DNA of 31,883 nt, from positions 1-31,883 of the forward strand of contig JBCDEZ010000012.1 in assembly GCA_039179045.1 (NCBI GenBank). Reading direction: 5' to 3'. Both the position numbers and the translations under genes were made by a program. Below the pieces are notes generated by a model, which saw only the letters and a program-made list of their open reading frames with translations, was not told the DNA's origin and did not search any database. The DNA is from Chlamydiota bacterium (GTDB lineage Bacteria; Chlamydiota; Chlamydiia; Chlamydiales; SM23-39). Below are positions 1 to 19,100 of this stretch, piece by piece. Every line of letters starts with the position of its first letter. Position 1 is the first letter of the stretch.

Positions 1-915
1 ATTGATCATATACAACCATCTCCTACTGTGGAAGCAATCATCAGCGAGGGGCAACAACCTCAAACTGCGCTAAACACAATAGAAAAAATTTTTTATGCCA
101 TTTTCTCATTTGCGGCAACTCGCAGCCTAAATTGGCTGGCAAAAACCTCTATCAACTGTCTAGGTATCAAAAACTTAACAAGAATCTACCAAGTACTCGA
201 AGGCAAAATGGCCGAAGACGGTATTCAGGAATTGTTCTTGGGTTCTATTTGTAAAAGATTCACCCATAAATCCAAATTCTTTGGTTTTCTGGAGAATAAC
301 AACGTTCCGGAAGATGAGCGAAATCTCTTGATGAGGGCTTCTCAAGGAAATCAGACTCTATTTGAAGAGGGATTCACACCACTCATGGTAGCAATCCACG
401 AGCAGCGCACCGATCTTGCAAAAAAAATCCTCGAACAATGCGAACGAACAGATATCAACCGGACAGCCCTAGGACAGTACAAAGATTTTGCAATGGGCGC
501 TCTGCAGATCGCCATTGACTTGCAATCGCCTCTTCAATCCCAGTTAATCGAAAAAGGGGCTTGTATCCAAGGAGCTGCAATCGCAAAAATCTTAGATCGA
601 GATACCGAACAGTTAGACCAAGATCTGATCTGGCACTTGGAGCGGTATGTCGAGGCTCCTATTGAAAAGATAAACTTTCAAAAACAAATCGGCAGAACGG
701 GATATAGCAAAACTCCCTATTCCCTTGTACAAAGACACATCGAAAATTTGGAGAACAAAATAGCAGCAGGCTCCGAAGAAGGAAACGCCAAAGATAGTAA
801 GCTCAATGAGCTCATACAAAAAAAAGAGGTTTTTGCAAGAATCCTTGCCCATTTAAAGAAGAAGGGCGGCTTGGACAAACCGATTTACAAAGATGCAGGT
901 TTGCTTGCTCAATAA
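1..915 (+). CDS. Ankyrin-repeat protein, putative host-interaction effector (probably 5'-truncated by window edge)
   Basis: Frame is open from base 1 (IDHIQPSPTVEA...). Ankyrin-like repeats EGFTPLMVAIHEQRTDLAKKILEQ and MGALQIAIDLQ...LIEKGACI. Confidence 0.7.
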   Translation: MDHIQPSPTVEAIISEGQQPQTALNTIEKIFYAIFSFAATRSLNWLAKTSINCLGIKNLTRIYQVLEGKMAEDGIQELFLGSICKRFTHKSKFFGFLENNNVPEDERNLLMRASQGNQTLFEEGFTPLMVAIHEQRTDLAKKILEQCERTDINRTALGQYKDFAMGALQIAIDLQSPLQSQLIEKGACIQGAAIAKILDRDTEQLDQDLIWHLERYVEAPIEKINFQKQIGRTGYSKTPYSLVQRHIENLENKIAAGSEEGNAKDSKLNELIQKKEVFARILAHLKKKGGLDKPIYKDAGLLAQ

Positions 916-1006: not shown

Positions 1007-1307
1007 CACTTTTTACTGTCGTCATATCTCAATGAAAAGCTGGTAAAACCATCAGAAATTCTTCTAGAGATTCTGCTTTTCTAAAGTTTCTATTCATAAC
1101 ATTTTTTGCGTTGCATTCTAGTGCATTAGGCTCAAAGTCAGCAAAAAGAATGTACGTGAATGGTCCACTCTGAAACAGGCTTTTTTGCGAGTCCACTGCC
1201 TAGAGAGATACGAGTTATAAATTCAAGCAATTAGGTCAAAGTGAATTGCGAATGCTTTTTCTTAATTACAGTGCGAATGAGGGTGGATTTTGCATCGTTT
1301 GTTTACG

Positions 1308-2968
1308 CTAATGAAGATTTTCTCGATCATTCTTTTCTTTGCAATGGCTCCGTTCTTTTTGCAGCCCTCCTTGATAAGAGGATGCTGCTTGCTCTTTTCT
1401 GGAAATAAAAAGAAGACAGAATTCCGAGCCAGTTTTTTTCAATCTATTGCATGTTTCGTAGGCTATAATTTTACGCATATCATAGCTCTTGGCTATTTGA
1501 GAATACCTAGCGTATTTGAGGAAGCATTCTATACCCATCTTGACTGAAGAATTGCGGAAAGAAATTCTTGCATAGGGAAAAAGTTCGAGTTTTGGGAGAG
1601 TTTATCTCGACCGAGTCCAGAGCTTTTCCAGGAACTGAAGAAACAAATCACAAATAGCTCTTCTCTCTATTTTTCCACCTTAACCCAATTCTTGAAATGA
1701 ACCGGGTATAAAGTGATTAAGAAGAGACCTTCCATGCTCAATTTTTTGCCAAGAGAAGAATTTCCTTGCACAACCCTTCGGTCAAGATAGGTACATCTAG
1801 AATTTCTTTCTGCTGACAGAAAAAGAATTGAGAATATTCTTCCTTAAGATTGTATCTGGACGAAAGAGAGTATATCCCATTCTACAACAAAAGAGTTCTA
1901 TCGATTTGAACAGGCTTTTTTCATTGGCTTTTGAGAAAAGAGTCCTTAATAGAGTTGATGGAACACAAGTCAATCGTGCATTGCTATTCAATTGAACCCA
2001 GCTTATTTTTTCACGTAGTGCAAATCTTGTAGACATTGACCGCTCTCTCCTAAAGTGACTTTGATGTAAAATTGTTTTACATTTTTCTTTCATCTGTAGC
2101 AATGGAAGTTTAGACACTGGAAATCAATCTATCAAATAGAGCAAAGAAGTAAAAGAATTTGCTAGATAGAAAAAGATGAAAACTCTGTATACCTCTGCTC
2201 TCAAACTGCATTCGGCTAGGAAATCGAGTGCAGAAAAAATTCCTTCGAGTCAATCACCGAGTTTCGCTTTCCTACTTTTTTCTTTTGGGAACTTGTATGC
2301 AAGTTTTTAATAGAACGTTCTACAAGCTCTACGAAAAAATTATAGATTGTGTGATTTAATCGAATATTTTACCGAGTAAAGAGCTTGTCAAAGAGACACA
2401 TTGCTCAGGACTTTCCTCCCTGTGCAACGGTGGACAGTGGTTAGTGGCAGGCGAAGAAAAGAGGAATAGAATAGGAAATACCCCAAGCTCTCCTTGCAAA
2501 GGCTCTTAATAGCTCTAGTTAGAGGAAAAATCTCGAGTAAAGGATGATTGAATCGCAAAGACTGAAAAGAACTACAGTATCTCAAGAACAGGGCATGAAT
2601 AAGGGAAAAACCAAAAAGAGGGAAATATCATATCTTCGTAAATACGTAAAATCCTATCCTAAGAATTTTTCAAAAAGCTCTCGAAAAATAGTGGAATTTG
2701 TACTGAGTCTGTAGAGATATGAGTTAGAGAAAAACGATGGAAATTTGTCACCGCAAAGAAAAAGATTGGGTACCATGGACAAAAAGTCGCTTGTTGAAAG
2801 GAGCTTTGCCTGAATCCAGCACTTTCGAAGAATCCCCAAAACTTTTGAAATTATCCTAAATTCGACTGAAAAGATCGTGCAAATTCCTCGCTCCACAGTT
2901 CTGATTAGATGAGCAACGGAACTATGTGTATTTCTTAGAAACGAAGGATTTTTCTCAAAACCTGTCAT
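1308..2968 (-). pseudogene. Probable decayed lineage-specific gene(s)
   Basis: Successive minus-strand ORF fragments (2654-2968, 2388-2585, 1797-2117, 1308-1538) in AT-rich DNA, with no recognisable domain. Confidence 0.25.
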
Positions 2969-3035
2969 ACAGGAGAAAATATTATTCTTTCGATAAAGGT
3001 TAAAGAACTACACAATAGATGAAAAGATTGGATTT

Positions 3036-11825: not shown

Positions 11826-13565
11826 ATGAGTCGTCTGCCTACACCCCAACAAAGATCCTTTCACCTTCTCAATGCTACCCAGTTTCTAGGAGCCCTCAAC
11901 GATAACATTTTCAAGTTATTGATCATCTATTTTTTGATTCATTTGAAAGGTCCTGAAAACACCAACACAGTGATCTCTCTTGCGGGGTCGCTCTTTGTGA
12001 TTCCTTTTCTCCTTTTCTCTTCTGCTGCCGGCATCCTTGCGGATAAGGTGAGCAAAAGGAGGGTGATTATTAGCACGAAGATTGTAGAAATTGTCGTGAT
12101 GGCGCTCGGATCTTTTGCCATGTATTGCCAGTCGGAGTTTTTCTGCTACACGCTCCTTTTTTTGATGGGGGCGCAAAGTACTGCCTTTGGCCCCTCTAAA
12201 TATAGCATCATTCCTGAGATTGTAGCCCCAGAAAATCTTTCCAAGGCGAACGGCAGCATCACCGCTTTGACCTATATTGCTATGATTTTAGGGAGCGTAG
12301 TCTCCTCTCTTTTGATGCAAGCGACGGGGGACAATTTCCTGCTTATTTCCTTTGTCTGCTGCGCCATTGCTGTGTTAGGGACTGTAACGAGTTTCGGTAT
12401 TGAAACGACAAATCGGCAAACGTCCAACAGGAAAGCATCTCCTTTTTTCCTGGTCGATATCTACAAAGCGCTTTCTTTGAGCAGCAAACGTTCTTTCTTA
12501 CTACCCGCTATTTTGGGTTCTTCTTTTTTCCTATTCATCGGAGGGTTTGTGCACCTCAATGTGATTCCCTTTGCAATGGAATCACTGCAGCTAAGCGCAG
12601 TAGCCGGAGGTTACCTCTTTGCTGCCACAGCCATCGGGATTGCTATTGGAGCGCGTCTTGCGGGCAAGCTTTCACAGGAGCGTGTTGAGCTAGGCCTCTC
12701 TTGCCTAGCCGGCTTTTGCATCGTGCTCCTTTTCTTCCTACTTACTATATTTTCCCAGAGTCTGATTGCCGTTGTTTGCCTGCTCACGCTTCTAGGAATT
12801 TTCGGAGGCCTCTTTGTGATTCCCCTCGAGTCTTTTATCCAAGCTTCGAGCCCAGAAAAGCGGCGCGGGCAGATCATCGCTGCCAACAACTTTCTTAGCT
12901 TTGGGTGTGTATTTTTGGCCTCTTCCTCGATTTACCTTTTCAACCAACGTTGGGGCTTTTCTGCTTCAGGAAGTTTTGTATTGATGGGTTGCTTGACCCT
13001 AGTATGCAACGCTTTGATTGCGGCGCGTATGAGTTCTCTTTTCTTCCCCTACTTCATGGAGAAGGTAGCTCTTCGCTGGATCCAGCTGCGCTCTTTAGGA
13101 GGTATCGAAAAACCCTGCTACATGGTTTTGCAGCGCTACCGAATCCTTGATATTTTGCTCCTCTCCTACGTCTGCAAAGATCTGCACGTTGTGGCAATTG
13201 CGAGGCCTTGGAGCATTACCTCTTTTTTCACTTCTTTGAGCAATGCCATCTTCTTTTTGCGCCCCTCTACCAACCACAATACAACCTTGCAGCGCCTCTT
13301 TGTGCGGGCAAAGCATCTGAAAAAAGCAAGCAATTTTGTTGCTGTTATTGTCAACAAAAACTACAGCGAAGAGATGATCTTGAAAGCTTACGAAAAAACA
13401 TTTGGGAAAAAAGAACCCGAGCTTTATCTGGCTAAAGTAGAAAAAGAACCCACCAAAGGTCTGTTGAGAAAAAGGAGCTACGTCTGCTCCTTTCAAAAAA
13501 TACAAAAAGAGCTTCCTCTCCTAGAAATCGAGGAGAGAGAGTACCAACTTGTCGGAAGCAATTAG
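11826..13565 (+). CDS. MFS transporter, LplT/Aas-N family (chlamydial YgeD/CT641-like), with degenerate C-terminal acyltransferase-like domain
   Basis: TQFLGALNDNIFK, PFLLFSSAAGILADKVSKR, QSTAFGPSKYSIIPE, RGQIIAANNF are typical of the LplT/Aas MFS domain. Adjacent to recC, as recalled for C. trachomatis. Confidence 0.85.
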   Translation: MSRLPTPQQRSFHLLNATQFLGALNDNIFKLLIIYFLIHLKGPENTNTVISLAGSLFVIPFLLFSSAAGILADKVSKRRVIISTKIVEIVVMALGSFAMYCQSEFFCYTLLFLMGAQSTAFGPSKYSIIPEIVAPENLSKANGSITALTYIAMILGSVVSSLLMQATGDNFLLISFVCCAIAVLGTVTSFGIETTNRQTSNRKASPFFLVDIYKALSLSSKRSFLLPAILGSSFFLFIGGFVHLNVIPFAMESLQLSAVAGGYLFAATAIGIAIGARLAGKLSQERVELGLSCLAGFCIVLLFFLLTIFSQSLIAVVCLLTLLGIFGGLFVIPLESFIQASSPEKRRGQIIAANNFLSFGCVFLASSSIYLFNQRWGFSASGSFVLMGCLTLVCNALIAARMSSLFFPYFMEKVALRWIQLRSLGGIEKPCYMVLQRYRILDILLLSYVCKDLHVVAIARPWSITSFFTSLSNAIFFLRPSTNHNTTLQRLFVRAKHLKKASNFVAVIVNKNYSEEMILKAYEKTFGKKEPELYLAKVEKEPTKGLLRKRSYVCSFQKIQKELPLLEIEEREYQLVGSN

Positions 13566-14893
13566 AACGTATAGATGAATTCGATCTTGAATTTCTTGTA
13601 GTTCGAATCGGGCCCAATGTCATCAAGTCTTTCCGAGATCTGAAAAAGCTGCGACATCGTGACATTGTCAGAAAAAGCATACAAAGTGCGGAGCGCCCAG
13701 CCGTGATAATTGCCGCCTCCAAATGTATTGTACACATTGGTAGCGACCACATCGCTCCCTTTTTTCAAGGTATAAGTACCTACAGAAGCCGCGTTTCCCC
13801 TGCCAATTCCAGAAGCATCAAAATCAGGAATCGCCTGCGCTTGCACCCACTGGTAGTTGGTATCGAGCGCCCAGTCTCCCTGCTTACGTGCTTTGCCAAT
13901 AGAGATCCCAGCATACCAGGCCCAGTTGTATTTCGCATCAGGATCCAAAGAGATCCTCTCTACTTGAGTAAGCTCGTCTTCGGTCAATGTTTCACCCGTT
14001 CTCGGGGTAAAGACTCGGCTAAGAGTATCGGCCGCGTCATTGTACGCTCCCGCTGCGTAAATTTTGCACACTTTGTTGAGCCATTTGGGCAGATACTGGT
14101 AGCCAATTTGCAGCTGTGAAACGCGGAAATTGAACTGGAAGTCCAAGGGATCTGTACTATTGTATTTTTTCCAGTCGATGTAATCTCCCTTAACGAAAAG
14201 ACCTGTACTTGCAATGTTCAAAAAGCCCATTTCGATGGCATAGCCGTAGTAATCGCGAGCAGTATTGATCAAAAAGACACCAAGATTCGTGTAGTAGTCG
14301 CCAATCTCTTCAAATGCTTTGCTAAACCGGAAAAGAGCGCCATCAAATGTGTTGGAAAACTGGATTCTCGAGTCAAACACATCACCAAGCGAGCGTCTAC
14401 CAAGTTCTGCATCAAAGCTAAACGAGTCCCCTGCAATCACTCTACCCCCTAAGTATGCACGGAGCAAGCGGATATTGCTCACGGTTCCATCTTGAATGCC
14501 CATCGAATTCTTGTAATTCAAAAAGACAGAAGACCAAGTTCTCTCAGCTCGGTAGTCGAACAAAAGGTTGAAAGCTACTGAATAGGGACGAGACGGCTTG
14601 CCAGTAGCCGAATTGCTGCCTCTTTGCCGGATGCCCTCTTTCTTCTCATTGATCGCAGAAAAGTCGCTGCGGATATCGCCACTAATCGAAAGATCTCCCC
14701 CTGTCTCCTTGAGAGTGATGAGTCGCTTTTCTCGGATCCACTTACGCAGCGCCTCCATATCGGGATCTCGCTTGGTATCTTCAAATAGAACTTCTTCTGC
14801 GGTCGTGTCTTCTTGCGCTAGCAAAGCCTTCTCTTCAGCTGAAAAGAGAAATGGGGAAGAAAGAAAGAAAAAAACAAGGAATAGGTGCTTCAT
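13562..14893 (-). CDS. Chlamydial outer-membrane beta-barrel/putative porin (CT623, CHLPN 76 kDa homolog-like)
   Basis: Signal peptide, DMEALRKWIREKR..LSISGDIR, FNLLFDYRAERTW, GKARKQGDWAL..NYQWVQAQAIPDFD..GIGRGN, C-terminal aromatic motif IEFIYTF. Confidence 0.8.
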   Translation of the reverse strand: MKHLFLVFFFLSSPFLFSAEEKALLAQEDTTAEEVLFEDTKRDPDMEALRKWIREKRLITLKETGGDLSISGDIRSDFSAINEKKEGIRQRGSNSATGKPSRPYSVAFNLLFDYRAERTWSSVFLNYKNSMGIQDGTVSNIRLLRAYLGGRVIAGDSFSFDAELGRRSLGDVFDSRIQFSNTFDGALFRFSKAFEEIGDYYTNLGVFLINTARDYYGYAIEMGFLNIASTGLFVKGDYIDWKKYNSTDPLDFQFNFRVSQLQIGYQYLPKWLNKVCKIYAAGAYNDAADTLSRVFTPRTGETLTEDELTQVERISLDPDAKYNWAWYAGISIGKARKQGDWALDTNYQWVQAQAIPDFDASGIGRGNAASVGTYTLKKGSDVVATNVYNTFGGGNYHGWALRTLYAFSDNVTMSQLFQISERLDDIGPDSNYKKFKIEFIYTF

Positions 14894-15189
14894 ACTAAAT
14901 CATGCAATTGTTTGAGAAATACATTTCATCATAAAGACCAGTTGCTTTTTCCCCAAGCAGAATTGTAGTGCCATTCACTCCGTGAGTAGAGCTGAGAAAG
15001 CGGAAAAAGCTAGCGCACTTCTTTCATAAAAGATTTCTTCGCTCTTTTCTGTAAAAGATCTTTCTCAAGACAACACCGCTGGATAAGAGCAAGGTACAAC
15101 CCCATTTGATTTTGTGGGAACAGTACTTCCTTGACTATTTTTTTATGAGCTCCTAGAGCATGGGCCTTTTCTGCTTACAAGGAGATTTT

Positions 15190-17316
15190 ATGCGCCTCTT
15201 CGCTCCTTTCCTCTACCTTGCCCTTTTCATCACCACGGTTTCCCTCTTCGGAGCAGAAGAAAGGAGGTGGGAGCTACCCGACACCTACGATGGAGTCTTG
15301 CAGATGGTCCACAATCTCGATTCGGGAGAGTTCATGGAAGAGCGCTCTCTCGAAGAGGCGGGACAGGCCCTACGCTACCTCGCTCTCTTAGCAAGAGAGG
15401 GAGCCCTTCCCAACCAGCCCGCAAGGAACGTAGAGATGGAAGAGAAGATCCAAGGGATCCTCTGCGACCATGAGATCCTCTTCGCCTTTTCTGAGTCCCA
15501 CGCACTTTACGACAAAGCATCCCTTAGCCAATATCTCGAAGAGAGCTGCAACATTGTTCCCTGTGGAGGACTCAGTAGCTTTTGGAAGAATGTCAAAAAC
15601 TTCGTCAAAGAGCACAAAAAAGAGATCATCATCGGCACGATTCTAGTCGTCGCAGCAGTCACGGTAACGGCAGGCGTTCTCGCTGTCCACGCAGCAAATT
15701 CTCCTACGCATAGCCCTTCTCCATCCTCTGCAAAAGATGATGCTGCCTTTCAAGAAGAGGAGCCGTCTGCTCTTGCGACAGCTCTCGAAGAATCAGCCAC
15801 TACCTTTAAGAGCCAGATCATCGAACAAGAGTTTTTCGAACCTCCGGCAAGCGGAGAGGGCTTGTCCCTCAAAGAGACGGGAAGAGCTCTCGGTCTTGTC
15901 TATGCCTACGACCATCTCAATCAGTTCCAGAAACTCTCCTACACACCACAATTCAGAAGGGATCTAAACACCCTCGAAGAGGCTTTTGCCTACACACCTC
16001 CTCTGAACGCAATAAAGGAACCTCTCGACTTTGGATTCGAAGAGATCGATCGGAGGTTTGCAAACTACGTAGATCCCTACGCCCTAGATCCCCCTGTTCT
16101 TGAAGACCTTCCCAATTGCGCCACACGCTCCTACCAGATGAGAGGAGAGGCGGCCCGCTACTACGGCTTTTACGGCGAATCGATTGAAAACTTTACCAAA
16201 GCCATCGAACTCAGTCCCAAGCAGCCGCTCTCGTATCTCCAAAGGAGCATCGCCCACTTCGATGCGAAAAACTACGAAGAGTCTGCAGTCGACTTCTTGC
16301 TCTTCGAGAAGCTCTTAGAGTCCTCTTCCAAAGAGCCATCCCTCGAAGAGTTTTCCCTCGGAAACTTCACCTGCGGGTTTGCTCGGGGATTGCCGACAGG
16401 TATCTACGAGTCAGGTACAGGAACCCTCCTTTTCCTGAGCAATCTCATTTCTGAACCTATCCAGACAGCCCATCAGATGTATACAGCCACCCTGACCTTA
16501 GTGGATCTTGCTCGCAGCGAAGAGTGGGATCTCATGGCAGAGTATCTCTGTCCTGAGATCCACCAACTAGTGCTCGAATGGGACACACTCTCCTCTGATA
16601 AAAGGGGAGAGCTCGCAGGCTACGCTTTCGGCAAGCATGGAGCCAACATCCTCATGCCAAGCGCAATCGGCAAAGTAGCGAAAAAAAGCGCTAAAGGTGC
16701 CCGCAGGCTCCGCTCTGCTCTAAAACGAGTCGAGCGCTCCGAAGAGCTGATTGTGATCGAGACGGCTGCTCGCTCCGGGAAAAGCGTCGAAATAGGACAC
16801 ATCTTCAACAAGGGGAAAGATAGCCTCTTTTTGGGAGAAGAGCTCGGGATCAGCATCCCAGAGATGGCCCGATTGAAAAAAGCAGGCAAGCTGGAGGAGA
16901 CTCTAAAACGGACAATGCGCCACTTGAGTTTTTCCGATCAAGAATCGTTGCATTTGTTTAGTCAGGCAGAAAAATCTCTACGCCGCTATAAAGGATTTCG
17001 ACCAGAGAGCGAGGTCAGAAAGTTGATTCATAACGAGGGAATATGTACTTTCCCAAGACCTGCAGGGATACCAAAAGACTACCGGGTGAAAATATCGGAT
17101 AATGGCTGTGGTATGAAATATGTGCACCCAAAACATACCCATACCTCTATAAGAGTCATGCCAGGCAAGCCGCATAGTCAATGGTCTAGCCAACGGAGAC
17201 CTTATGTTATTATTATGAAAAACGGTGATGTGCTCGATAATGCAGGTAATCTAGTTTTGATTGATACCTTTGAAGCTCACATACCTGTCGAAGAATTTGT
17301 TTTTATAGGAGATTAA
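15190..17316 (+). CDS. Putative polymorphic toxin: signal peptide + TM helix + TPR + C-terminal toxin-like domain
   Basis: ATG 15190 after GGAGA. Signal peptide MRLFAPFLYLALFITTVSLFG, TM IIIGTILVVAAVTVTAGVLAV, TPR pair YQMRGEAARYYGFYGESIENFTKAIELSPKQPLSYLQRSIAHF, basic His-containing tip (...IRVMPGKPHSQ...PYV...LDNAGN...HIP). Confidence 0.75.
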   Translation: MRLFAPFLYLALFITTVSLFGAEERRWELPDTYDGVLQMVHNLDSGEFMEERSLEEAGQALRYLALLAREGALPNQPARNVEMEEKIQGILCDHEILFAFSESHALYDKASLSQYLEESCNIVPCGGLSSFWKNVKNFVKEHKKEIIIGTILVVAAVTVTAGVLAVHAANSPTHSPSPSSAKDDAAFQEEEPSALATALEESATTFKSQIIEQEFFEPPASGEGLSLKETGRALGLVYAYDHLNQFQKLSYTPQFRRDLNTLEEAFAYTPPLNAIKEPLDFGFEEIDRRFANYVDPYALDPPVLEDLPNCATRSYQMRGEAARYYGFYGESIENFTKAIELSPKQPLSYLQRSIAHFDAKNYEESAVDFLLFEKLLESSSKEPSLEEFSLGNFTCGFARGLPTGIYESGTGTLLFLSNLISEPIQTAHQMYTATLTLVDLARSEEWDLMAEYLCPEIHQLVLEWDTLSSDKRGELAGYAFGKHGANILMPSAIGKVAKKSAKGARRLRSALKRVERSEELIVIETAARSGKSVEIGHIFNKGKDSLFLGEELGISIPEMARLKKAGKLEETLKRTMRHLSFSDQESLHLFSQAEKSLRRYKGFRPESEVRKLIHNEGICTFPRPAGIPKDYRVKISDNGCGMKYVHPKHTHTSIRVMPGKPHSQWSSQRRPYVIIMKNGDVLDNAGNLVLIDTFEAHIPVEEFVFIGD

Positions 17317-17318
17317 GC

Positions 17319-17696
17319 TTGGAATTTACGGAACAACACAAAAAGCGGCTTCTCGGTTATTACTTAAAAAACATTTCTCAGATAGCAAGTAGGGAATACC
17401 AGGAGAGAGTCTGGATACGTGCTGAAGGGCCTGAGGTGGATGATTTTACAGAAACTGTTTGTTACTTTTTCGATCTCGGAGATCCAATTTTAGAAAACTA
17501 TAAAGAATATAAAATTTCGGAAGAACAATACCAAATACTTTTGAAGTTTCGGAATTTCTTTGAGTCTTTTGTAGACTTAGATTATCGACCTTATTTAGAA
17601 AAGGATTTTATCGATACTCCCGAATGGCACAGCGTGATGAATAGGGCAAAAGAAGTGCTACAAGCATTCCATTATCAAGAGGAAAAGGAAGTTTAA
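17319..17696 (+). CDS. Putative immunity protein
   Basis: TTG start 2 nt after the toxin stop, with SD (AGGAGA) inside the toxin 3' end. 125 aa, acidic and aromatic-rich, AT-rich DNA. Pattern IASREYQERVW...DDFTE...FIDTPEW..V...A recalls SCO4402-like putative immunity proteins. Confidence 0.7.
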   Translation: MEFTEQHKKRLLGYYLKNISQIASREYQERVWIRAEGPEVDDFTETVCYFFDLGDPILENYKEYKISEEQYQILLKFRNFFESFVDLDYRPYLEKDFIDTPEWHSVMNRAKEVLQAFHYQEEKEV

Positions 17697-17744: not shown

Positions 17745-17771
17745 TAGGCTACTACTAGCCTAATTGTTTTT
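17745..17771 (+). terminator. Possible intrinsic terminator of the toxin-immunity pair
   Basis: TAGGCTA-ctac-TAGCCTA 7-bp hairpin followed by ATTGTTTTT. Confidence 0.4.
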
Positions 17772-17802: not shown

Positions 17803-17864
17803 AGGGAATATGTGCTTTCCCAAGACCTGCAGGAATTCCAGACGGCTACCAGGCGGAGATATAA
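17803..17864 (+). pseudogene. Orphan remnant of a paralogous toxin C-terminal module
   Basis: 17803-17861 matches 17036-17094 at 49/59 nt by hand alignment (first 31 nt 30/31). Encodes GICAFPRPAGIPDGYQAEI* versus GICTFPRPAGIPKDYRVKI. Confidence 0.75.
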
Positions 17865-17939: not shown

Positions 17940-19100
17940 ATGAACATTATATGTCTGCTTTTTTTGAGTCTTGCATCAATATTTCCCCAGTTTGCAAATG
18001 CGAAATCTTTACCTGAAGATATGCGCTTCAATGCACATGCTCATGGATCCACGATTAGCTCTTGCCGAAAGGACCTAGAAGAACTGGGGTTCTGTGTGAT
18101 TCCTCAGGTTCTTTCAGATGATGAAGCAAGAACTCTATATGTTCGTGTTTGGGATGAGTTCATTGAAAAAGCATGGGCAGATTGCAAAATGGATCACAGA
18201 GGTAACTGGAAAAATACGTTTCCGATACACAACAAAAGGGGAATGTTTGCAGGCCCAGCAGGACAACTGCAGGTCATGTGGGATATAAGACAAGATCCAC
18301 GCATTGTGGGTATATTTGCGCAGATTTGGAACACGGATGATCTTATTGTGAGCATGGATGGGATGTCTTTTATGTGCCCACCTGAGATTAGAGAAGGCCA
18401 TATTGAAACCTGGATGCATGTTGATCAGTCAATATTGTGTAGACAAGACGGTACACGACATAGCAACAATGCTCCTGTAAATTTTATTAGTGAGTCTTCA
18501 TTACAAACACAGCCATATACGATTCAAGGACAGTTCCTGTTCGAAGATTCCTTTGAGGATGATGGAGGGTTTTATTGCATTCCCAAATCACACCGTAGGT
18601 TTGCTGAGTTTGCTCCTAAGCTAGCAAGAATTAGTGCAATCCGTGACGGAATGGAGAGAACAAAAGCGCGGACCGAATTTTTTAAGAAATTTTTTACAGA
18701 AAATAGGGATGAGCTTGGAAATTCTTACAAAATGCAACACGTAAAAGCGCCTCGCGGTTCTTTGATCTTATGGGATTCAAGAACGGTTCACTGGAACCAA
18801 CATGCAAATAAAAATCGATCCTCGGACGATAGTCCCAAGGTGAGGATGGTTGGCTATTTGTGTTATGTACCGAAAAGCAGGCTGACAAATGAAGGAAGAA
18901 AGCTTAGGAAAGAGGCTTTTGAGAAGGGAGTTGCCACAGGTCACAATCCTGCCCGTCCAGAACTTAAGTACACCAAGGACCATATATGGCAAGAGTTCAA
19001 TTATTATCTTGAAAGTACAGAATACGTTCAACCGAATATTCAACTAACTACATTAGGGAAATCATTGCTTGGCATAGACGAACTAGAAGGATGCGAATAA
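17940..19100 (+). CDS. Phytanoyl-CoA dioxygenase (PhyH) family 2OG-Fe(II) oxygenase with N-terminal signal-like peptide
   Basis: LEELGFCVIPQVLS N-terminal motif, HxD (WMHVDQS), GGFYCIPKSH, distal His (GSLILWDSRTVHWN), RMVGYLCYVP. SD GAGGA upstream. Confidence 0.85.
   Translation: MNIICLLFLSLASIFPQFANAKSLPEDMRFNAHAHGSTISSCRKDLEELGFCVIPQVLSDDEARTLYVRVWDEFIEKAWADCKMDHRGNWKNTFPIHNKRGMFAGPAGQLQVMWDIRQDPRIVGIFAQIWNTDDLIVSMDGMSFMCPPEIREGHIETWMHVDQSILCRQDGTRHSNNAPVNFISESSLQTQPYTIQGQFLFEDSFEDDGGFYCIPKSHRRFAEFAPKLARISAIRDGMERTKARTEFFKKFFTENRDELGNSYKMQHVKAPRGSLILWDSRTVHWNQHANKNRSSDDSPKVRMVGYLCYVPKSRLTNEGRKLRKEAFEKGVATGHNPARPELKYTKDHIWQEFNYYLESTEYVQPNIQLTTLGKSLLGIDELEGCE

What the first reader, a model, noticed from the sequence alone, without database searches (positions are those of the whole stretch)
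15190..17696. Putative chlamydial polymorphic toxin-immunity system built on a signal peptide/TM/TPR carrier
Seen: a ~708-aa ORF with a Sec-type signal peptide, an internal TM helix, a Ser/Pro linker, a TPR pair, a Gly/Ala-rich helical segment and a basic ~100-aa tip. It is followed 2 nt later by a small acidic, aromatic ORF whose SD lies in the upstream gene. Established: toxin tip plus coupled immunity gene is the layout of Rhs, CdiA, MafB and LXG/WXG systems. Inference: the tip motif (GIP..Y....S..G.G..YV.P.....IRVMPG.P.S......PYV....NG..LD..GN........HIP) resembles, from memory, tips on Rhs/WXG100 proteins of other phyla and may be a nuclease. The carrier has no YD repeats, FHA repeats, LXG, PAAR or MafB N-terminus that I can see. 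It may therefore be an undescribed delivery class used by an intracellular bacterium against co-infecting bacteria or kin.
Basis: partly seen in the sequence, partly recalled or inferred. Interest (0 to 1): 0.88.

Follow-up and report, generated by a model that had tools for sequence, protein, structure and literature searches.

The report
Chlamydial swappable-tip toxin-immunity family
This gene pair belongs to a widespread, apparently undescribed family in environmental chlamydiae, in which one carrier protein bears interchangeable toxin tips, each followed by its own antidote gene, suggesting that these host-dwelling bacteria fight other bacteria.

Summary
The 708-aa ORF and its coupled 125-aa neighbour belong to a large chlamydial family. 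Of 141 distinct carrier ORFs, 138 have intact ends and fall into 11 tip classes; no downstream-gene family is shared between classes. Carrier modules 94-99% identical bear unrelated tips, and orphan tip cassettes occur. Other tips include Ntox50, LHH, DUF4258 and a CdiA-CT tRNase homologue. The window's tip matches the fold of the nuclease toxin PT7 (PDB 8OWU; Z 7.8, next 3.6). It keeps an Arg and a His but apparently lacks PT7's D37 and H47. The same tip with an SCO4402-like partner also sits on Rhs, PT-TG and phage-portal proteins. A predicted complex (0.85; best control 0.02) covers the putative active site. The carrier matches no Rhs, CdiA, MafB or LXG model, and no conserved neighbour gene was found. 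A Cys-rich form without the internal TM points to Sec export. Toxicity, export route and target are inferred, not shown. Verdict: a new carrier class of polymorphic toxin.

The parts
15180..15184 (+). Shine-Dalgarno AGGAG, 5 nt before the ATG at 15190
   Evidence: sequence
15190..17316 (+). Full-length toxin gene, 708 aa: signal peptide, N-module, hydrophobic helix, M-module, TPR, helical C-module, tip
15190..15252 (+). Probable Sec signal peptide (residues 1-21)
   Evidence: hydropathy; similar N-termini in homologues; not tested with a dedicated predictor
15271..15561 (+). Acidic N-module (residues 28-124), family-specific, no Pfam or NCBIfam model
   Evidence: median net charge -15 in 75 homologues
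15562..15693 (+). Conserved Cys125, basic helix, then a long uncharged hydrophobic stretch (residues 125-168)
   Evidence: in 75 homologues median +7 before the run, -1 after it, run median 41 aa
15787..16089 (+). M-module (residues 200-300); directly precedes the tip in the short form of the family
16126..16302 (+). TPR pair (residues 313-371)
16342..16779 (+). All-helical pre-toxin C-module (residues 385-530), shared by carriers with different tips
16975..17313 (+). Toxin tip (residues 596-708), PT7-like fold; R655, M657, S663, Y672, D683 and H697 conserved across the family
17307..17311 (+). Shine-Dalgarno AGGAG of the immunity gene, inside the toxin gene
17319..17696 (+). Predicted immunity protein, 125 aa, SCO4402/DUF7945-like (below cut-offs)
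17745..17762 (.). Terminator-like hairpin after the immunity gene; the number of such sites is at chance level
   Evidence: 3 found, 3.3 expected
17803..17862 (+). Relic copy of the tip start (83% identical to 17036-17095); probable remnant of a downstream cassette

Best explanation
This is a polymorphic toxin-immunity system of environmental chlamydiae on a lineage-specific carrier. Shown by comparison: a conserved carrier ends in interchangeable toxin domains, each followed by its own small coupled gene, and tips are exchanged among near-identical carriers, with spare cassettes downstream. Inferred: the protein is exported by Sec without a dedicated neighbouring transporter, as for MafB. It leaves the periplasm by the type II system, vesicles or lysis. 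The basic-plus-hydrophobic helix and the helical C-module help it engage the target membrane. The tip is released into the cytoplasm of another bacterium, probably a related chlamydia sharing the host. The window's tip is most likely a PT7-fold nuclease (about 0.75) using Arg655, Tyr672 and His697 instead of PT7's acidic/His set. The 125-aa protein blocks that site in the producer. The export and entry steps are the weakest part (about 0.5).
For: Polymorphism: 11 intact tip classes in 138 of 141 ORFs, with 15 downstream families and none shared between classes; class 0 has the SCO4402-like gene in 60 of 65. Swaps: C-modules 94-99% identical carry different tips; 42 tip changes on a 108-row tree, against a minimum of 9 and 49.2 +/- 1.7 for shuffled labels. 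Cassettes: 33 of 203 tip-bearing loci had two or more tip hits, for example L156, L032, L133 and L170 (some are duplicate fetches, broken genes or hits within immunity ORFs). Known toxins among sister tips: Ntox50 99.7 bits, LHH 24.8, DUF4258 29.3, and Colicin_immun downstream, all above cut-off; CdiA-CT 6D7Y at E 7.5e-22. Window tip: 8OWU by sequence profile E 0.0034, Foldseek E 6.9e-3, TM 0.69 by target, VIA Z 7.8, rmsd 2.9, 73 of 76 residues aligned. The same tip lies on Rhs, PT-TG and portal proteins with SCO4402-like neighbours. Complex: score 0.85 against best control 0.02; in calibration 116 of 157 solved and 2 of 215 mismatched pairs reached the mark; runs agree in at least 95% of contacts, partner pLDDT at least 88; the interface includes R655, M657 and H697. 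Export: of 39 carriers lacking the N- and M-modules, 28 have a signal-like start, 2 have an internal TM, and the median Cys count is 11.
Against: No toxicity, binding, expression or secretion was measured. The fold scores are moderate (Foldseek above E 0.001; Z under 8). By the register read, PT7 D37, H47 and H49 correspond to Met657, Tyr672 and Ile674, so PT7's chemistry cannot be transferred. A signal-like start was scored in only 44 of 70 long-form proteins (start-codon errors may contribute). Signal peptide plus stop-transfer TM would leave the tip in the producer's cytoplasm. Two of 20 class-2 tips and the two class-6 tips use alternative downstream families, and 8 of 138 have no adjacent ORF by my rule. 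The ORFs are related and not independent. Tyr672 is not among the listed interface residues.
Confidence: 0.8

Rival explanations
1. Host-directed effector: the carrier delivers nucleases into the eukaryotic host, for example Inc-like through the type III system into the inclusion membrane, and the small gene only protects the producer during synthesis.
For: The uncharged run is long (median 41 aa), like the bilobed hydrophobic domain of Inc proteins (recalled), and one homologue hits an Inc model weakly (E 0.022). The genome has a type III export gate. PT7 lysates harmed fungi (bioRxiv 10.1101/2021.10.19.465003, passages). The TPR is nearest to eukaryote-type and designed TPRs.
Against: Each tip has a cognate immunity gene and orphan cassettes exist, and the tips are shared with antibacterial CDI and Rhs systems. 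Sec-like leaders and a Cys-rich, TM-free form do not fit type III export. Zhang 2012 reads adjacent immunity genes as a sign of intraspecific rather than host targets (PMC3482391, passages).
Confidence: 0.09
2. Self-directed module: an inner-membrane protein with a periplasmic N-module and a cytoplasmic TPR-nuclease held by its antitoxin, firing on stress or phage attack (toxin-antitoxin or abortive infection).
For: Signal peptide plus one TM gives this topology by default. No transporter gene is conserved nearby.
Against: The basic cluster lies before the TM (+7 against -1 after), the wrong side for that topology by the positive-inside rule. The TM-free form would export the tip. Tip swapping and cassettes are typical of competition systems. 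No PADLOC hit for 5 proteins.
Confidence: 0.07
3. The family is a polymorphic toxin system, but the window's tip class is not a nuclease, or is inactive, and works by binding a target.
For: PT7 D37 and H47 appear replaced (register). No Pfam or NCBIfam toxin model matches the tip.
Against: R655, S663, Y672, D683 and H697 are kept in 13 of 13 tips on unrelated carriers and in 39-41 of 41 chlamydial tips. The predicted immunity interface covers the Arg/His site. ESM Atlas feature neighbours are Ntox47-, Ntox30-, Ntox37- and Ntox17-bearing clusters (a lead only, since the recognition value was low).
Confidence: 0.2

Closest known systems
MafB/MafI toxins of Neisseria (and the Microscilla-N group)
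   Same: Signal peptide, lineage-specific conserved N-terminal region, variable toxin tip, adjacent immunity gene and cassettes (PMC3482391 section 37, read in full). An ESM feature neighbour of the C-module is a MafB cluster (0.84, lead only).
   Different: No PF06255 hit in 18 carriers. No conserved upstream mafA-like gene in 79 loci. It has a TM-like helix and TPRs, comes in three modular forms, and spans many chlamydial families.
PT7(Bc)/PIM7, PDB 8OWU
   Same: Tip fold: top hit in three searches, with the Arg and the C-terminal AHIP His aligned. PT7 is a metal-dependent DNase (bioRxiv 10.1101/2021.10.19.465003 section 12) that also degrades RNA (PMC13675652, passages).
   Different: D37 and H47 map to Met and Tyr by inferred register. 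The immunity profile does not hit 8OWU at E up to 10. PT7 is fused to LXG.
Amoebophilus APD1/APD2 effectors
   Same: Endosymbiont proteins with a signal peptide, conserved prodomain and polymorphic C-termini.
   Different: They have a lipobox and are predicted to be host-directed. The window's protein has no Cys at its predicted cleavage site, and this family carries cognate immunity genes. APD sequences could not be compared.
Rhs and CdiA systems
   Same: Shared tip pool: the window's tip on Rhs proteins; the class-2 tip is homologous to CdiA-CT PABL017, a tRNase.
   Different: No RHS/YD or haemagglutinin repeats and no linked cdiB. The genome's TpsB gene sits on another contig beside its own 1595-codon frame.
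SCO4402 family (NF047838) / DUF7945
   Same: The partner scores 33.6 bits (E 3.7e-8) and homologues up to 46.6.
   Different: All are below the cut-off of 50. No paper holding 'SCO4402' was found, so the immunity role is my inference.

Membership tests
Polymorphic toxin system | Conserved N-terminal carrier with variable C-terminal domains | tested here: met
   11 intact tip classes on 138 of 141 ORFs
Polymorphic toxin system | Tips include recognised toxin domains | tested here: met
   Ntox50, LHH and DUF4258 above cut-off; 6D7Y at E 7.5e-22
Polymorphic toxin system | Cognate immunity gene directly downstream, co-varying with the tip | tested here: met
   No downstream family shared between tip classes; predicted complex 0.85 against control 0.02
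Polymorphic toxin system | Orphan cassettes and tip exchange | tested here: met
Polymorphic toxin system | Toxicity, neutralisation and delivery shown by experiment | not testable with these tools
   needs bench work
Rhs | YD/RHS repeat shell | tested here: not met
   no such Pfam or NCBIfam hit; the same scan detects it in L225 and L241
CdiA (CDI) | TPS domain, haemagglutinin repeats, linked cdiB | tested here: not met
   TpsB is unlinked
MafB | N-terminal signal peptide | tested here: met
   by hydropathy only
MafB | MafB-N/DUF1020 domain and upstream mafA | tested here: not met
   0 of 18 carriers hit PF06255 at E up to 0.05; no recurring neighbour in 79 loci
LXG/WXG100 toxins | LXG or WXG N-terminal domain, no Sec signal | tested here: not met
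APD1/APD2 effectors | Lipobox followed by an APD domain | tested here: inconclusive
   no Cys at the predicted cleavage site; APD alignments not in the supplement text held
PT7 nuclease | PT7 fold | tested here: met
   moderate scores, single clear top hit
PT7 nuclease | Essential residues D37 and H47 | tested here: not met
   Met657 and Tyr672 by register inferred from the chain-B sequence (17-residue offset) and the strand pattern; no coordinate superposition was available
PT7 nuclease | PIM7-type immunity protein | tested here: inconclusive
   no sequence hit to 8OWU; the partner's fold was not searched
SCO4402 family | Score above the curated cut-off of 50 bits | tested here: not met
   33.6 bits: related, below cut-off
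PT8(Li) toxin | Sequence identity to PT8 | not testable with these tools
   PT8 sequence not seen: preprint supplements closed, and the PMC13675652 supplement unreadable

The most novel reading that the evidence does not exclude
Environmental chlamydiae carry their own class of Sec-exported, self-entering antibacterial toxin that needs no dedicated secretion partner. An acidic N-module masks a basic-plus-hydrophobic membrane-entry helix, and the commonest payload is a PT7-fold nuclease with a rebuilt, metal-independent Arg/Tyr/His site. Obligate intracellular bacteria would then routinely wage toxin warfare over host cells, giving a molecular basis for superinfection exclusion and symbiont-mediated host defence.
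Probability: 0.35. Interest if true: 0.88.

Novelty: new variant of a known kind. Interest (0 to 1): 0.72.

Why it matters
The main survey of polymorphic toxins holds that intracellular bacteria mostly lack immunity proteins and rarely compete with conspecifics (PMC3482391, passage). Here a toxin-immunity family recurs across many chlamydial families, often in several copies per genome, with active tip exchange. How chlamydial symbionts exclude other bacteria from amoebae is described as mechanistically open, with polymorphic toxins named as one possibility (PMC6520448, passage). This family supplies specific, clonable candidates. It also assigns a likely immunity role to SCO4402-like proteins and defines an unmodelled PT7-fold toxin family (1110 representatives at E up to 0.001).

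Tried and rejected
C-module fold: no clear match (VIA best Z 5.8; Foldseek none at E up to 0.001). This is inconclusive for a helical bundle and does not show a new fold. The N- and M-modules were not folded. Tip class 3 has an RxD..HxH motif like PT7's, but is not detectably related to the window's tip (HHalign probability 0.2) and has no PDB hit; the idea was dropped. Tip classes 1 and 5 have no significant PDB sequence hit. No conserved neighbour gene: apart from the family itself, its opposite-strand shadow ORFs and immunity genes, no family recurred in more than 3 of 79 loci. No T6SS sheath gene was found in the 88%-complete genome. The TOM70 hit is far below cut-off and reflects TM plus TPR composition. 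A search for longer proteins with the C-module alignment used the wrong length window and returned only TPR proteins. No tip match in phage records. No RNA holder listed. Contigs from four DNA runs were too fragmented to show a strain-level tip swap. Promoter and terminator counts were at chance level. Kinship of five genomes with non-chlamydial titles was not returned. One genome was left unscored. The earlier-findings look-ups returned nothing.
Full report
Observation. The window is chlamydial: it holds a Chlam_OMP gene, ParA with UPF0137, and recBCD. ORF 15190-17316 encodes 708 aa with two hydrophobic segments (1-23 and 143-171), a Ser/Pro linker, a TPR pair and a basic end. A 125-aa acidic, aromatic ORF starts 2 nt later, with its ribosome-binding site inside the upstream gene. 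Two features were missed. A 60-nt relic of the tip start lies downstream of the small gene (83% identity). GC3 falls from 0.58 in the carrier to 0.35 in the tip and 0.34 in the partner, against 0.47-0.54 in five housekeeping or membrane genes of the window; the adjacent PhyH gene is also low at 0.36.

Spread. The whole protein matched 27 of 61 related genomes. A carrier-only profile matched 173 of 400 scored genomes of the phylum at E up to 1e-20. Weak matches there may be TPR only; about 73 genomes have a best E below 1e-80 (my hand count from the table). One family had 0 of 29. A scan of 185,579 species genomes confirmed 155 stretches and kept 79 loci. By record title, 55 are Chlamydiota, 9 Verrucomicrobiota, 12 unassigned, and one each Acidobacteriota, Saccharimonadota and an archaeon. 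GTDB once filed chlamydiae under Verrucomicrobiota (recalled); I could not settle the three odd titles. The patterns came from chlamydial sequences, so restriction to the phylum is likely but not shown. One homologue is named by its source as Simkania negevensis Z SNE_A04460.

Polymorphism. From 219 loci I kept carrier ORFs with a complete 3' end and removed identical C-termini: 122 of 209 C-module hits remained, plus 19 short-form ORFs, 141 in all. Three have broken ends. The other 138 fall into 11 tip classes of 65, 24, 20, 14, 4, 4, 2, 2, 1, 1 and 1. Eight have no adjacent ORF by my rule. The rest fall into 15 downstream families, none shared between tip classes; one 'family' is the remainder of a frameshifted tip. 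The window's class has the SCO4402-like gene in 60 of 65. C-modules 94-99% identical carry unrelated tips. On a 108-row, 144-column quick tree, tip class changes 42 times, against a minimum of 9 and 49.2 +/- 1.7 (lowest 44) in 300 shuffles; the tree is short and recombination affects it. Two or more tip hits occur in 33 of 203 loci, including clear orphan cassettes at L156, L032, L133 and L170. That count includes duplicate fetches, broken genes and some hits inside immunity ORFs.

Sister tips are toxins. Ntox50 (99.7 bits), LHH (24.8, one of two tips) and DUF4258 (26.1 and 29.3) pass their cut-offs, and one downstream gene passes Colicin_immun. [quoted passage not shown] Classes 1, 3 and 5 have no significant PDB hit. 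The window's genome has a short-form gene with a class-2 tip and partner on C19, a second carrier start cut off at the edge of C7, and a second partner gene at the edge of C23.

The window's tip. It has no Pfam or NCBIfam model, yet 1110 cluster representatives score E up to 0.001, of which I saw the best 150. Its profile hits 8OWU at E 0.0034. The AF2 model (pLDDT 96) finds the same entry first by Foldseek (E 6.9e-3, TM 0.49 by query, 0.69 by target) and by VIA-align (Z 7.8, rmsd 2.9, 73 of 76 aligned, next Z 3.6). 8OWU is PT7(Bc) D37A with PIM7. PT7 is an EDTA-sensitive DNase whose D37A and H47A mutants lose toxicity in vivo (bioRxiv 10.1101/2021.10.19.465003; sections 9 and 12 read, other passages seen). 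It also degrades RNA (PMC13675652, passages). Reading the chain sequence with a 17-residue offset, PT7 R35, D37, H47, H49 and H74 correspond to R655, M657, Y672, I674 and H697. This register is inferred: HMMER's own alignment places H47 differently, and I had no coordinates. Either way the tip has no Asp at the D37 position. R655, M657, S663, Y672, D683 and H697 are kept in 13 of 13 tips picked from unrelated carriers and in 39-41 of 41 chlamydial tips. The window's copy has them all. I infer a nuclease with a rebuilt site, probably metal-independent.

The tip and partner travel together. The pair occurs on Leptospira plasmids (4 records, 36-37% identity), on a phage portal protein, on Rhs proteins of more than 2000 aa and on a PT-TG protein. 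Six such neighbours score 23-47 bits on NF047838, all below cut-off. Whether the Leptospira copy is the published PT8 could not be checked, because the supplements were not readable. ESMFold2 scored the window's pair 0.85 against a best control of 0.02; in calibration 116 of 157 solved complexes and 2 of 215 mismatched pairs reached the mark. The three runs agree in at least 95% of contacts, with partner pLDDT at least 88. The interface includes R655, M657, Q668, I674 and H697 but does not list Y672. This supports binding; it does not show it, and likeness to 8OWU may have helped.

The carrier. Only TPR models recur across 18 carriers in Pfam, and the 60 PDB sequence hits shown, of 109, centre on the TPR. 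It is modular. Among the 150 best tip representatives, 27 have N+M+C, 13 N+M, 53 C alone and 33 none of the three. Of 39 C-only proteins over 450 aa, 28 have a signal-like start, 2 an internal TM, and the median Cys count is 11; 44 of 70 long forms scored signal-like and 69 of 70 have the TM. In 75 N-form proteins the 15 residues before the hydrophobic run carry a median +7 and those after it -1, and the N-module -15. A plain inner-membrane anchor would put the basic cluster in the periplasm, against the positive-inside rule. With the TM-free form, this favours export and a latent membrane-entry helix, which is inference. The C-module is helical with no clear fold match; its ESM feature neighbours include EndoU-, MafB- and TNT-bearing clusters at scores under 0.9. 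No neighbour gene is conserved. The genome has a type II secretion GspF-like gene, a type III gate and an unlinked TpsB; no T6SS sheath gene was found.

Comparison with what is known. It works like MafB but is not MafB, Rhs, CdiA or LXG. Zhang 2012 (PMC3482391; section 37 read, other passages seen, 300,000 of 357,715 characters held) lists MafB-N, Microscilla-N and APD1/APD2 as lineage-specific Sec carriers and predicts more. It notes chlamydial toxin domains, including a Simkania URI toxin with an immunity gene, but I saw no chlamydial carrier described. Its domain supplement was not available. Literature searches showed no description of this family; I saw only listings for papers not cited here, and most subscription papers are outside the library.

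Verdict. A real polymorphic toxin-immunity system on an apparently undescribed chlamydial carrier. The kind of system is known; the carrier class, its spread among obligate intracellular bacteria and the altered PT7-fold payload appear new. Interest 0.72.

Noticed in passing
G000:C19:691-2259 (-) and 473-694 (-): Short-form paralogue (no TPR or C-module) with a CdiA-CT PABL017-like tip and its own partner gene. A further ORF at 72-506 resembles the class-1 immunity proteins by eye, perhaps an orphan immunity gene.
   Followed up: partly
G000:C7:1-396 (-) and G000:C23:22333-22581 (-): A carrier start (74% identical) and a partner gene end (77%) at two contig edges; possibly the two ends of a second full copy whose middle was not assembled.
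   Followed up: partly
G000:C3:18601-18705, C43:140-220, C8:7050-7339: Decayed fragments of the tip and of the immunity gene elsewhere in the genome.
   Followed up: no
L221:1132-3162: Phage portal protein fused to the same tip and followed by an SCO4402-like gene. An upstream ORF shares the FNPYHD linker motif and precedes a gene like the class-5 partners.
   Followed up: partly
L220:5878-6605: Same tip and partner within a Leptospira plasmid toxin-cassette region; might be the published PT8/PIM8 pair, not checked.
   Followed up: partly
P0134, P0197, P0209 and relatives: Third carrier form: signal peptide, highly variable Cys-rich region (CxxxC near the start in 20 of 39), TPR, C-module, tip. 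The variable part could be a receptor-binding domain.
   Followed up: partly
L193:1548-5738: 1396-aa member ending in a class-0 tip without the usual partner gene; no Pfam hit.
   Followed up: no
L006:2890-3630 and L028:869-1489: Immunity genes fused in tandem (two SCO4402-like units; SCO4402-like plus a class-4-type partner), i.e. polyimmunity proteins.
   Followed up: no
G000:C10:27928-34234 (-): TpsB/ShlB-family gene followed by a 1595-codon frame: a separate two-partner secretion pair.
   Followed up: no
window 13562-14893 (-): 443-aa signal-peptide protein ending in Phe, porin-like by eye, no Pfam or NCBIfam hit; divergent from the toxin gene and not a conserved neighbour.
   Followed up: partly
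window 17940-19100 (+): PhyH-family dioxygenase with a hydrophobic leader and low GC3 (0.36) directly after the relic; may have arrived with the variable region.
   Followed up: no
window 1290-3000: AT-rich stretch (GC about 0.37) with no convincing long ORF between an ankyrin-like gene and recD.
   Followed up: no
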